A DNA stretch of 64,000 nt from Escherichia coli (GTDB lineage Bacteria; Pseudomonadota; Gammaproteobacteria; Enterobacterales; Enterobacteriaceae). Below are positions 42,640 to 45,600 of the stretch, in pieces. The stretch lies in assembly GCF_022846255.1 (NCBI RefSeq), contig NZ_AP025682.1. One strand, given 5' to 3'. Made by a program: the position numbers. Every line of letters starts with the position of its first letter. Within the stretch, counting starts at the first letter, position 1.

Positions 42640-45600
42640 TTAATTAAAACAATGTTTCATTTCTATCGTTATACGAAAAGATGATCAATTCCGCCAGCCT
42701 TAACGCGTGAATTATTGTCTTATCACAACTTATCGGCAGGCGCGTTCCCGCCTTTCGGATCAAGGCCAGCATCACTCCTTGAGAAGAGTTTTTATCGCTT
42801 CCCCCGCCATGGCAGCTGTTGCACAGAGTTGTTCGATGGAGTGCCCCTCCCGTGCCTTCGCAGAAAGCCCTGACATCACGGTACTCATAAAATCAGTCAC
42901 ACATTGTGCGCTTTGTGGATGCCGCCTGGCGATATAGTCATAAATGGTCGTTTCTGCGGCGTGATAATATTGAACGGCAATATCACGCGCTTGTGGATCA
43001 TGACTATGAATACCTTCAAGAACCATACAGCCAGCGCAGCCGCCGTTTTGGCTATATCTGCGCGCCGCTTCTTTTAATACCTCAACCAGGCACTCGCCTA
43101 CCGGACGATCATCACGAAGAATATCGGCAAGCGGAATAGCTTCCGTACCGACATATTCATTGAGTACACGGCTAAATAACCCAGCCTTACTGCCAAAAGC
43201 CGCGTAGAGGCTCGGGGGGTTAATACCAAGATAATCAGTAACTTCAGCAACACTGACAGCATCGAAACCTTTTTGGTGAAAAAGCACTTTTGCCGCAGAG
43301 ACTGCCTGCTCAGGAGCGAAACGTCTGGGACGACCTGGAACGCGAGATTGTTTTTTAGTGACCATTACAAAACTTGTTGACAGAAAGTTAAAACAGTTTT
43401 GTAATGCATGTTACATAATAAATCAAGGAGTCCTTATGGGCGCTTTTACAGGTAAGACAGTTCTCATCCTCGGTGGTAGCCGTGGAATCGGTGCCGCTAT
43501 CGTACGTCGTTTCGTCACCGATGGAGCCAATGTACGATTCACCTATGCGGGGTCGAAAGATGCCGCTGAACGCCTGGCACATGAGACTGGAGCGACAGCA
43601 GTATTCACAGATAGTGCTGACAGAGACGCTGTTATTGATGTCGTTCGTAAGAGCGGCGCATTGGATATCCTGGTGGTAAATGCAGGTATTGGCGTCTTTG
43701 GCGATGCCCTGGAATTAAATGCCGACGATATTGATCGCCTTTTCAAAATCAATATTCATGCTCCTTATCATGCCTCTGTTGAAGCCGCCCGGCAGATGCC
43801 CGAAGGCGGGCGTATCTTAATCATCGGCTCCGTGAATGGCGATCGTATGCCTGTTGCAGGCATGGCTGCTTATGCCGCCAGTAAATCTGCCCTGCAAGGC
43901 ATGGCGCGCGGGCTGGCCCGTGATTTTGGACCGCGTGCGATCACCATTAACGTCGTCCAGCCAGGACCAATTGATACCGACGCTAATCCCGCCAACGGGC
44001 CAATGCGCGATATGTTGCATAGTTTTATGGCCATCAAAAGACATGGGCAACCGGAAGAGGTCGCTGGTATGGTCGCATGGTTAGCAGGGCCAGAAGCCAG
44101 TTTTGTTACCGGCGCGATGCATACCATTGATGGCGCATTTGGCGCATAACCGGCTACGCTCAATTAAGCCCAGCCATTATCCATGATGTCTGGGTTTTGT
44201 TTACTCACGTCGTCCCCCTAAAAGCGGCTCCCGGTAAATATAAATCTTCTGTTCATGTCGTAAATCTTGAGGATAACCAAATGGTAGAAAGAACCGCTGT
44301 TTTCCCTGCTGGCCGACATTCACTGTATGCTGAGCATCGTTATTCTGCGGCTATTCGTTCCGGCGATTTGCTGTTTGTTTCCGGGCAAGTAGGAAGTCGA
44401 GAGGACGGAACACCAGAACCCGATTTTCAGCAACAAGTCAGACTGGCATTTGATAATTTGCATGCGACCCTGGCTGCTGCGGGATGCACTTTTGACGATA
44501 TCATTGATGTTACGAGCTTTCATACCGATCCAGAAAAACAATTTGAAGACATCATGACGGTGAAAAATGAAATATTTAGCGCCCCACCTTATCCAAACTG
44601 GACGGCGGTGGGTGTTACCTGGCTGGCTGGCTTTGATTTTGAAATTAAAGTAATAGCGCGCATCCCTGAGCTGTAAGCAATAGTGTTAGCCGTGAGTTTT
44701 CACGCTCCGCCCTATAAGTCGGATGAATGGAATAAAATGCATATCGGATTGGGTGAAAGTGAAAAAGAAAAAAGCAGGAAATGTCTGCAATTATTGATAC
44801 CGAACGACCATTCCCCTCCAGAACCATAGAAAATAAAAATGCACATACTTTGACTTTTAATTCAAATAAACCGTTTGCGCTGACAAAATATTGCATCAAA
44901 TGCTTGCACCGCTTCTGGCTATGAGTATAATGCCGGACAATTTGCCGGGAGGATGTATGGTTCAGTGTGTTCGACATTTTGTCTTACCGCGTCTGAAAAA
45001 AGACGCTGGCCTGCCGTTTTTCTTCCCGTTGATCACCCATTCCCAGCCCCTCAATCGAGGGGCTTTTTTTTGCCCAGGCGTCAGGAGATAAAAGATGGCT
45101 AATCCGCTATATCAGAAACATATCATTTCCATAAACGACCTTAGTCGCGATGACCTTAATCTGGTGCTGGCGACAGCGGCGAAACTGAAAGCAAACCCGC
45201 AACCAGAGCTGTTGAAGCACAAAGTCATTGCCAGCTGTTTCTTCGAAGCCTCTACCCGTACCCGCCTCTCTTTCGAAACTTCCATGCACCGCCTGGGTGC
45301 CAGCGTGGTGGGCTTCTCCGACAGCGCCAATACATCACTGGGTAAAAAAGGCGAAACGCTGGCCGATACCATTTCGGTTATCAGCACTTACGTCGATGCG
45401 ATAGTGATGCGTCATCCGCAAGAAGGTGCGGCGCGCCTGGCCACCGAATTTTCTGGCAATGTACCGGTACTGAATGCCGGTGATGGCTCCAACCAACATC
45501 CGACACAAACCTTGCTGGACTTGTTCACCATTCAGGAAACCCAGGGGCGGCTGGAAAATCTGCACATTGCGATGGTCGGTGACCTCAAATATGGCCGCAC

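What the first reader, a model, noticed from the sequence alone, without database searches (positions are those of the whole stretch)
44957..45072. pyrBI attenuator and PyrL leader peptide conserved
Leader ORF and hairpin plus U-tract are intact, as expected for UTP-sensitive attenuation. Ordinary, known biology.
Basis: established knowledge. Interest (0 to 1): 0.1.

Follow-up and report, generated by a model that had tools for sequence, protein, structure and literature searches.

The report
Known pyrBI attenuator and PyrL leader
This is the ordinary, textbook control region in front of the E. coli pyrimidine-synthesis genes pyrB and pyrI: a 44-codon leader gene that runs through a transcription stop signal. 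It is base-for-base identical to the laboratory strain K-12.

Summary

- **Leader ORF:** window 44957..45091 (+) encodes the 44-aa PyrL peptide (Pfam PF08052, 117 bits; NCBIfam NF007587, 120 bits).
- **Terminator:** an 8-bp G+C-rich hairpin (45045..45064, -15.9 kcal/mol, z = -4.6) and a T8 tract (45064..45071) lie inside the ORF, 23 nt before the pyrB ATG (45095).
- **Finding span:** the stated end (45072) is the end of the T tract. The ORF itself runs 19 nt further.
- **Identity to K-12:** the DNA is identical to K-12 DH1 from 44921 to beyond the pyrB start.
- **Conservation in E. coli:** the 156-nt leader is >=99% identical in 5,419 of 5,426 complete genomes.
- **Conservation across species:** in 80 Enterobacterales species retrieved through PyrB alone, every locus keeps the same plan. 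That plan is TATAAT-N7/8-(AA/GT/GA/CG)TTTG, a ribosome-binding site plus ATG, a mid-leader hairpin with compensatory changes, a U/C-rich tract, and a perfect hairpin plus T run.
- **ORF reach:** in 80 of 81 loci the leader ORF reaches or crosses the hairpin.

This fits the established mechanism, in which low UTP slows RNA polymerase, a closely following ribosome blocks the terminator, and UTP-dependent reiterative transcription at AATTTG (44939..44944) adds a second control. Nothing here is novel. A predicted pairing between the pyrL ribosome-binding site and the pyrimidine tract is mostly explained by base composition.

The parts
44904..44909 (+). Putative -35 hexamer TTGCAC of the pyrBI promoter (K-12 has TTGCGC)
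   Evidence: Read from the sequence; 16 nt upstream of the -10 hexamer. Only 3 of 6 bases match the consensus, so the promoter scan did not report it. It differs from K-12 at 44908. The assignment is inferred, not tested.
44926..44931 (+). -10 hexamer TATAAT of the pyrBI promoter
   Evidence: Sequence. Invariant in all 77 distinct leader sequences from 80 species plus the window. Followed by the G+C-rich discriminator GCCGGAC (44932..44938). The promoter is described as stringent in PMC6524683.
44939..44944 (+). Transcription start and initially transcribed region AATTTG, the site of UTP-dependent reiterative transcription
   Evidence: Sequence identical to the K-12 region described in PMC7039003 and PMC6524683 (AAUUUn transcripts, about 7-fold control). 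The T3-4 run 7-8 nt after TATAAT is kept in all species examined: AATTTG in 64 and GTTTTG/GATTTG/CGTTTG in 12 of the 76 leaders matched by the pattern, plus AATTTG in L082 read by eye.
44948..44952 (+). Shine-Dalgarno GGAGG of pyrL
   Evidence: Sequence; 4 nt before the ATG. GGAG is invariant in alignment A2.
44957..45091 (+). pyrL leader ORF: 44 codons plus TAA
   Evidence: Pfam PF08052 scores 117.1 bits against a cut-off of 25. NCBIfam NF007587 equivalog scores 120.1 bits against a cut-off of 61. Annotated as pyrL in K-12 DH1 at the identical sequence.
44987..45009 (+). Mid-leader hairpin CCGCGUCU-GAAAAA-AGACGC(U)GG, upstream of the U-rich tract
   Evidence: Folded at -11.6 kcal/mol, z = -2.4. 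On the unfitted alignment the 5-pair core is 93% paired, with changes on both sides at 3 pairs, for example U-A to C-G in 15 sequences. Its role in pausing is uncertain: PMC9291695 found that the pyrL pause it mapped (~24 nt upstream of the classical site, tested with a different predicted hairpin) was not hairpin- or NusA-stabilised in vitro.
45013..45031 (+). U/C-rich tract GCCGUUUUUCUUCCCGUUG, the region of UTP-sensitive polymerase pausing; encodes LPFFFPL
   Evidence: Sequence. Highly conserved across 80 species. Pausing on U-requiring template at low UTP is described in PMC10135430. Pausing itself was not testable here.
45045..45064 (+). Attenuator (intrinsic terminator) hairpin: 8 bp, 6 G-C pairs, loop AAUC
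   Evidence: Terminator scan. Folded at -15.9 kcal/mol, z = -4.61. A perfect 7-10 bp stem is present in all 80 related loci, with compensatory variants such as GCCCCUC/GAGGGGC versus GCCCCUU/AAGGGGC. Covered by pyrL codons 30-36.
45064..45071 (+). T8 tract of the attenuator
   Evidence: Runs of at least 6 T follow the hairpin in all related loci.
45083..45087 (+). Shine-Dalgarno AGGAG of pyrB, inside the 3' end of pyrL
   Evidence: Sequence. Conserved as CAGGAGA in most loci.
45095..46030 (+). pyrB, aspartate carbamoyltransferase catalytic chain (311 aa), the regulated gene
   Evidence: TIGR00670 scores 418 bits. Pfam OTCace_N and OTCace match.
46043..46504 (+). pyrI, aspartate carbamoyltransferase regulatory chain (153 aa)
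   Evidence: TIGR00240 scores 243 bits. Pfam PyrI and PyrI_C match.

Best explanation
This is the pyrBI promoter-leader region of Escherichia coli, identical to that of K-12.

Transcription starts at the A of AATTTG (44939). At high UTP two things happen. Many initiations are lost to reiterative addition of U at the T3 run. Polymerases that escape transcribe the 156-nt leader without delay, the GC-rich hairpin (45045..45064) plus U8 forms, and transcription stops 23 nt before pyrB.

At low UTP the polymerase stalls in the U-rich stretch (45013..45031). A ribosome translating pyrL (44957..45091) catches up. Because the ORF runs straight through the hairpin (codons 30-36), the ribosome physically prevents the hairpin from folding. 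Transcription then continues into pyrB and pyrI.

Shown here: the sequence anatomy, its identity to the characterised K-12 region, and its conservation and covariation across Enterobacterales. Taken from the literature: the pausing, the ribosome dependence and the UTP response.
For: - Identity to K-12 DH1 across 44921..45110, where pyrL and pyrB are annotated.
- The PyrL family matches are far above their cut-offs.
- The terminator hairpin and T8 were detected and are much more stable than shuffles.
- The leader is >=99% identical in 5,419 of 5,426 complete E. coli genomes. The 261-nt span that includes the upstream promoter DNA reaches that level in only 1,964.
- 80 species loci were retrieved through PyrB only, so independently of the leader. 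All keep TATAAT-N7/8-xxTTTG, SD plus ATG, the mid hairpin, the U/C tract, and the hairpin plus T run.
- A covariance model of the leader hits once per locus and once in the 64-kb window.
- The three-helix structure tested (mid-leader hairpin, terminator, and the SD:pyrimidine-tract helix) is 88% paired on an unfitted alignment, against 46-60% when partners are slid. Ten pairs change on both sides, and 0 of 500 shuffles reach this.
- The leader ORF is present in 81 of 81 loci. It reaches or crosses the terminator in 80 of 81, even though its C-terminal residues and stop position vary. A ribosome-occlusion mechanism requires exactly this.
- Literature: PMC10135430 (reconstituted coupling on pyrL at limiting UTP); PMC5021804 (the pyrL hairpin lowers a reporter about 18-fold, and coupling suppresses termination); PMC7039003 and PMC6524683 (AATTTG reiterative transcription, about 7-fold).
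Against: No experiment was done on this strain, so the UTP response, the pausing and the ribosome dependence are inferred from sequence identity. The consensus promoter scan did not call the promoter, because the -35 hexamer matches only 3 of 6 bases. Three substitutions relative to K-12 lie in the -35/spacer region (44908, 44918, 44920) and could change promoter strength. The role of the mid-leader hairpin in pausing is questioned by PMC9291695.
Confidence: 0.96

Rival explanations
1. The hairpin plus T tract is only a constitutive terminator or insulator, for example ending transcripts from the upstream gene yjgH, and the small ORF is incidental.
For: yjgH (44197..44676) lies on the same strand upstream. 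Intrinsic terminators are common in intergenic DNA (one search found 2 terminator-like sites in 600 nt against 0.7 expected).
Against: The hairpin lies 370 nt after the yjgH stop and downstream of a conserved TATAAT/AATTTG promoter. An ATG-initiated ORF with a strong SD reaches the hairpin in 80 of 81 species loci. The peptide matches a curated family at E = 3e-34. In UPEC 536 the upstream genes differ, yet the leader is unchanged. Published experiments show ribosome-dependent read-through (PMC5021804, PMC10135430).
Confidence: 0.02
2. Pyrimidine control in this strain rests essentially on reiterative transcription at the AATTTG start, and the attenuator contributes little.
For: The AATTTG region and its T run are as conserved as the attenuator. 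Reiterative transcription alone gives about 7-fold control (PMC6524683).
Against: The attenuator is intact and identical to K-12, where both mechanisms operate together. The pyrL hairpin alone lowers downstream expression about 18-fold in a reporter (PMC5021804). The two mechanisms are complementary rather than exclusive.
Confidence: 0.02
3. A trp/his-type attenuator, in which ribosome stalling at regulatory codons selects between antiterminator and terminator hairpins.
For: It has a leader peptide ORF and an intrinsic terminator upstream of biosynthetic genes, as in trpL or hisL.
Against: No alternative hairpin overlaps the 5' arm of the terminator in the predicted fold; 45029..45044 is unpaired. 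There is no run of codons for a pathway end product. The ORF runs through the terminator itself, which is the occlusion arrangement and not the alternative-hairpin arrangement.
Confidence: 0.01

Closest known systems
E. coli K-12 pyrBI attenuator / pyrL (pyr operon leader peptide; Pfam PF08052, NCBIfam NF007587)
   Same: Identical nucleotide sequence from 44921 to beyond the pyrB start: the -10 hexamer, AATTTG start, SD, 44-aa ORF, mid hairpin, U-rich tract, terminator and T8, and the pyrB SD. The gene order is also the same: bdcR-bdcA-yjgH-pyrL-pyrB-pyrI-ridA, with mgtA opposite.
   Different: Only three substitutions, upstream in the -35/spacer region (44908 A for G, 44918 G for A, 44920 T for G).
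Salmonella/Citrobacter/Klebsiella-type pyrL (33-34 aa)
   Same: Same promoter start region, SD, N-terminal peptide (MVQCVRH..LPRLK..AGLPFFFPL), mid hairpin, U-rich tract and terminator.
   Different: Their ORF stops at a TGA or TAA inside the terminator loop or 3' arm (50 of 81 loci). In the window a CGA codon at 45056..45058 takes that place and the ORF runs on to 6 nt (stop-codon start) before the pyrB ATG.
Amino-acid operon leader-peptide attenuators (trpL, hisL, pheL, thrL)
   Same: A short leader ORF, coupling of translation to transcription, and an intrinsic terminator before the structural genes.
   Different: There is no antiterminator or alternative hairpin and no regulatory codon run. 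The signal is sensed by RNA polymerase (UTP-dependent pausing), not by the ribosome (charged tRNA). The ribosome blocks the terminator directly (PMC10135430).
Reiterative-transcription control at the codBA, upp and B. subtilis pyrG promoters
   Same: A homopolymeric run just after the start site makes initiation sensitive to a nucleotide pool (PMC7039003, PMC12709180).
   Different: At pyrBI the slipped AAUUUn transcripts are released without start-site switching, so the process is non-productive. It also acts together with a downstream attenuator.

Membership tests
pyrBI attenuator / PyrL leader (E. coli type) | Leader ORF encoding a PyrL-family peptide | tested here: met
   PF08052 scores 117.1 bits (cut-off 25), aligned 1-44 of 44. 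NF007587 equivalog scores 120.1 bits (cut-off 61).
pyrBI attenuator / PyrL leader (E. coli type) | Located directly upstream of pyrB-pyrI on the same strand | tested here: met
   The pyrL stop is at 45089..45091, the pyrB ATG at 45095 and pyrI at 46043.
pyrBI attenuator / PyrL leader (E. coli type) | Intrinsic terminator (G+C-rich hairpin plus U tract) within the leader, shortly before pyrB | tested here: met
   An 8-bp stem with 6 G-C pairs at 45045..45064 and T8 at 45064..45071; -15.9 kcal/mol, z = -4.61.
pyrBI attenuator / PyrL leader (E. coli type) | Leader ORF overlaps the terminator hairpin, so a translating ribosome can occlude it | tested here: met
   Codons 30-36 cover the hairpin. 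The ORF reaches or crosses the hairpin in 80 of 81 loci.
pyrBI attenuator / PyrL leader (E. coli type) | U-rich pause region upstream of the terminator, preceded by a hairpin | tested here: met
   GCCGUUUUUCUUCCCGUUG at 45013..45031, after the hairpin at 44987..45009. Both are conserved, and the hairpin covaries. This is met at the sequence level only.
pyrBI attenuator / PyrL leader (E. coli type) | UTP-sensitive pausing and ribosome-dependent read-through | not testable with these tools
   Taken from the literature on the identical K-12 sequence (PMC10135430, PMC5021804).
pyrBI attenuator / PyrL leader (E. coli type) | Promoter with an AATTTG initially transcribed region for reiterative transcription | tested here: met
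   TATAAT-GCCGGAC-AATTTG at 44926..44944. Matches PMC7039003. Conserved in all species loci.
trp/his-type leader-peptide attenuator | Alternative antiterminator hairpin competing with the terminator, and regulatory codons in the leader | tested here: not met
   The predicted fold leaves 45029..45044 unpaired, and nothing pairs with the 5' arm of the terminator. The peptide has no end-product codon run.
Any Rfam RNA family | Match to a curated covariance model at its gathering score | tested here: not met
   No family reached its threshold over 40000..50000. The only overlap is a sub-threshold minus-strand hit to Chlorobi-1 (24.5 bits against 50), attributable to the hairpin.

The most novel reading that the evidence does not exclude
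The pyrL ribosome-binding site (CGGGAGGA, 44946..44953) is predicted to pair with UCUUCCCG (45021..45028) in the very tract where polymerase pauses at low UTP.

This pairing could act as a kinetic gate. At high UTP the tract would emerge quickly and close the ribosome-binding site, so no ribosome follows and termination is assured. At low UTP the paused polymerase would keep the tract hidden, leaving the site open for ribosome loading.

The helix is predicted with P >= 0.95 in 75 of 75 distinct species leaders. It is 95% paired on an unfitted alignment, with G-C to A-U double changes at two pairs.

However, dinucleotide shuffles of the downstream 85 nt still give a mean P of 0.86, and P >= 0.95 in 38% of shuffles. 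Most of the signal is therefore base composition. Both arms are also conserved for other reasons.
Probability: 0.07. Interest if true: 0.3.

Novelty: already known. Interest (0 to 1): 0.04.

Why it matters
It matters only as a positive control. The scan correctly recognised one of the classic examples of regulation without a repressor, and the region is intact in this strain, so pyrimidine control of aspartate carbamoyltransferase is expected to be normal. The cross-species comparison made here gives a compact comparative confirmation of the ribosome-occlusion model. The same plan holds in 80 Enterobacterales species, and the leader ORF always reaches the terminator although its stop codon moves. 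It adds no new biology.

Tried and rejected
- **Rfam scan of 40000..50000 at E <= 1.** No pyrBI-leader family exists or matches. The minus-strand Chlorobi-1 hit is a sub-threshold artefact of the hairpin.
- **Consensus promoter scan.** It found no promoter because the -35 hexamer matches only 3 of 6 bases. The promoter assignment rests on identity to K-12, the literature and conservation.
- **First attempt to translate pyrL.** It was off by one base; the ATG is at 44957.
- **First ORF scripts.** One took the first in-frame ATG, which lies in the -10 hexamer upstream of the start site. Another took the overlapping ATG at 44953. This was corrected by anchoring on the aligned ATG.
- **Alignments for the terminator.** The MAFFT and covariance-model alignments put the terminator arms of species with 3-nt loops out of register. 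This gives an apparent 85-89% pairing. Per-sequence detection shows a perfect stem in every locus.
- **SD-sequestering helix as a new regulatory element.** It was tested with partition-function folding and shuffles and is largely explained by composition. It is kept only as a low-probability reading.
- **Papers not held.** The Turnbough & Switzer 2008 review (PMC2415746) and Roland et al. 1988 (PMC282141) could not be read. Their content is cited only through papers that cite them.

Full report
**1. What is in the sequence**

Reading 44700..45400 and listing ORFs gives the following features, in order on the + strand:

| Feature | Coordinates |
|---|---|
| -10 hexamer TATAAT | 44926..44931 |
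| G+C-rich GCCGGAC | 44932..44938 |
| AATTTG (transcription start region) | 44939..44944 |
| Shine-Dalgarno GGAGG of pyrL | 44948..44952 |
| pyrL ORF, ATG at 44957, TAA at 45089..45091 | 44957..45091 |
| pyrB ATG | 45095 |

- The ORF encodes MVQCVRHFVLPRLKKDAGLPFFFPLITHSQPLNRGAFFCPGVRR (44 codons).
- The pyrB Shine-Dalgarno AGGAG (45083..45087) lies inside the end of the leader ORF.
- Within the ORF lies the hairpin AGCCCCUC-AAUC-GAGGGGCU (45045..45064), followed by T8 (45064..45071). The terminator scan found this site.
- The finding's span 44957..45072 therefore runs exactly from the leader ATG to one base past the T tract. The ORF itself continues 19 nt further.

**2. More than chance**

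- The hairpin folds at -15.9 kcal/mol, against -5.7 ± 2.2 for dinucleotide shuffles (z = -4.61, 0 of 200 as stable).
- The whole leader (+1 to the T tract) has z = -3.66.
- The peptide matches Pfam PF08052 (PyrBI_leader) at 117 bits, E = 3e-34. It matches the NCBIfam equivalog NF007587 at 120 bits.
- The downstream ORFs are full-length pyrB (TIGR00670, 418 bits) and pyrI (TIGR00240, 243 bits).

**3. Comparison with K-12 and the E. coli population**

- A 261-nt query around the finding matches 5,424 of 5,426 complete E. coli genomes. Every listed hit is annotated 'pyrL: pyr operon leader peptide | pyrB'.
- The alignment with K-12 DH1 shows no difference from 44921 through the pyrB start. The only differences lie upstream at 44908, 44918 and 44920, in the -35/spacer region.
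- The 156-nt leader alone (44939..45094) is >=99% identical in 5,419 genomes. The longer query that includes promoter-upstream DNA reaches that level in only 1,964. The leader is therefore markedly more constrained than its flank.
- The gene neighbourhood is the K-12 one: bdcR, bdcA, yjgH, pyrL, pyrB, pyrI, ridA, with mgtA opposite.

**4. Comparison across species**

Using PyrB alone as bait, 80 species-representative loci of Enterobacterales were fetched, from Escherichia to Yersinia, Serratia, Rahnella and Pantoea. The bait is independent of the leader, so what lies upstream is a fair test.

- **Terminator.** Every locus has a perfect 7-10 bp G+C-rich hairpin followed by at least 6 T upstream of pyrB.
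- **Start region.** All 77 distinct leader sequences carry TATAAT, then 7 (once 8) nt, then xxTTTG. This is AATTTG in 64 and GTTTTG, GATTTG or CGTTTG in 12 of the 76 sequences matched by the pattern; the 77th (L082) also carries AATTTG, read by eye. It is followed by CC(G/A)GGAG and an ATG.
- **Covariance model.** A model built from this alignment hits exactly once in each source and once in the 64-kb window, at 44926..45076 with 167.8 bits. The window was part of the training set, so its own score is by construction. The informative result is the single hit per locus.
- **Pairing on the unfitted MAFFT alignment.** The tested structure comprised the mid-leader hairpin, the terminator and the SD:pyrimidine-tract helix discussed in section 7. 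It is 88% paired, against 46-60% when the 3' partners are slid by 1-3 columns. Ten pairs change on both sides, and 0 of 500 column shuffles reach this.
- **Mid-leader hairpin (44987..45009 in the window).** Its core is 93% paired. U-A changes to C-G in 15 sequences, although the hairpin lies in coding sequence.
- **Terminator variants.** The terminator shows compensatory variants, for example GCCCCUC/GAGGGGC versus GCCCCUU/AAGGGGC. The lower apparent pairing of the terminator is a register artefact caused by 3-nt versus 4-nt loops.

**5. The leader ORF as a test of mechanism**

Anchoring on the aligned ATG, all 81 loci have an ATG-initiated leader ORF. The residues after about position 26 and the position of the stop codon vary widely:

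| Position of the leader stop codon | Loci (of 81) |
|---|---|
| Inside the terminator hairpin (Salmonella/Citrobacter/Klebsiella type, 33-34 aa, TGA or TAA in the loop) | 50 |
| Between the terminator and the pyrB ATG (E. coli type, 44-45 aa) | 13 |
| Overlapping or beyond the pyrB ATG | 17 |
| 2 nt before the hairpin (L049) | 1 |

What is conserved, then, is not the C-terminal peptide. It is the fact that a ribosome translating the leader arrives at the terminator. The ribosome-occlusion model requires exactly this. In the window, codons 30-36 cover the hairpin.

**6. Mechanism**

The literature on the identical K-12 sequence supplies the functional steps.

- With abundant UTP, polymerase transcribes pyrL quickly and terminates when the hairpin folds. 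With limiting UTP it pauses on the U-requiring template, and a coupled ribosome prevents the hairpin from folding. This was reconstituted in vitro (PMC10135430).
- The pyrL hairpin lowers a downstream reporter about 18-fold, and close coupling suppresses this (PMC5021804, which cites Roland et al. 1988).
- Independently, at high UTP the AATTTG start gives released AAUUUn transcripts, which reduce productive initiation about 7-fold (PMC7039003, PMC6524683, PMC12709180).
- The promoter is classed as stringent, with a G+C-rich discriminator (PMC6524683). This agrees with GCCGGAC at 44932..44938.
- One caveat concerns the mid-leader hairpin. PMC9291695 found that the pyrL pause it mapped, ~24 nt upstream of the classical site and with a different predicted hairpin, was not stabilised by NusA or rescued by compensatory hairpin mutations in vitro. 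The pausing role of the hairpin remains unsettled, although its covariation indicates that the pairing is selected.

Anatomy, identity and conservation are shown here. Pausing, coupling and the UTP response are inferred from the literature.

**7. What else was considered**

- **Plain terminator for yjgH.** This is excluded by the position (370 nt after the yjgH stop, downstream of a conserved promoter) and by the conserved ORF.
- **trp/his-type attenuator.** This is excluded because no alternative hairpin competes with the terminator and there are no regulatory codons.
- **Rfam.** No family matches this leader.
- **SD:pyrimidine-tract pairing.** The minimum-energy fold pairs the pyrL ribosome-binding site (44946..44953) with UCUUCCCG (45021..45028).
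  - The pairing is predicted with P >= 0.95 in all 75 distinct species leaders and is 95% paired on the unfitted alignment.
  - However, shuffling the downstream 85 nt of the window leader still gives a mean P of 0.86, and P >= 0.95 in 38% of shuffles.
  - A pyrimidine-rich leader pairs with a purine-rich SD largely by composition. I keep a kinetic-gate role only as a low-probability reading.

**8. Verdict**

This is the already known pyrBI attenuator with its PyrL leader, unaltered relative to K-12. Interest is very low.

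Noticed in passing
window 44946..44953 with 45021..45028: The predicted fold pairs the pyrL Shine-Dalgarno region (CGGGAGGA) with UCUUCCCG in the U-rich pause tract. The pairing is predicted in 75 of 75 species leaders and is 95% paired on an unfitted alignment, with two G-C to A-U double changes. 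Shuffles of the downstream sequence give almost the same SD pairing (mean P 0.86), so it is mostly compositional.
   Followed up: yes
L003..L082 (leader ORFs); window 45056..45058: The stop codon of the leader ORF moves between species: 50 loci stop inside the terminator hairpin (33-34 aa), 13 between the terminator and pyrB (E. coli, 44 aa), 17 overlap or pass the pyrB ATG, and 1 stops 2 nt before the hairpin. In E. coli a CGA codon replaces the TGA used in Salmonella and Citrobacter.
   Followed up: yes
L067 (Pluralibacter gergoviae) and L050 (Phytobacter massiliensis): In L067 the leader ORF has no stop and runs in frame into pyrB, giving a 358-aa reading frame. In L050 it runs 95 codons, out of frame, into pyrB. 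Whether a PyrL-PyrB fusion is ever made was not examined.
   Followed up: no
window 44908, 44918, 44920: There are three substitutions relative to K-12 DH1 in the presumed -35 hexamer and spacer of the pyrBI promoter (TTGCAC...CTGGCTATGAG versus TTGCGC...CTGACGATGAG). The 261-nt stretch is 100% identical to strains E2865 and H19. The effect on promoter strength is unknown.
   Followed up: partly
window upstream of 44922; L002 (UPEC 536): In about 600 of 5,426 E. coli genomes the match to the window starts only at 44922, at the 5' edge of the -10 region. In UPEC 536 the upstream genes are argF, a YfcC-family gene and an arginine-repressor paralogue instead of bdcA and yjgH. The promoter-upstream DNA is a diverged allele, while the leader is unchanged.
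   Followed up: partly
window 44953..45102 (+): A second ATG, 4 nt before the pyrL ATG (ATGTATG), opens a 49-codon ORF in another frame that overlaps all of pyrL and the pyrB start. It abuts the SD, so it is unlikely to be used. In L004 and L005 (E. coli E69, E. albertii) this frame is continuous with pyrB.
   Followed up: partly
window 49959..50000 (-): This is a partial match to the Mg2+ riboswitch (RF01056; 34.1 bits, cut off by the edge of my search range) upstream of mgtA (47169..49865, minus strand). It is the expected mgtA leader.
   Followed up: no
window 47012..47123: Sub-threshold hits to ES036/CssrF and naRNA4/CssrE (REP-type palindromic repeat RNAs) lie in the ridA-mgtA intergenic region. 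They probably reflect REP/BIME elements.
   Followed up: no
E. coli genome collection: Three of the pyrL matches lie on records labelled as plasmids, one genome has two copies, and 2 of 5,426 genomes have no match. None of these was inspected.
   Followed up: no
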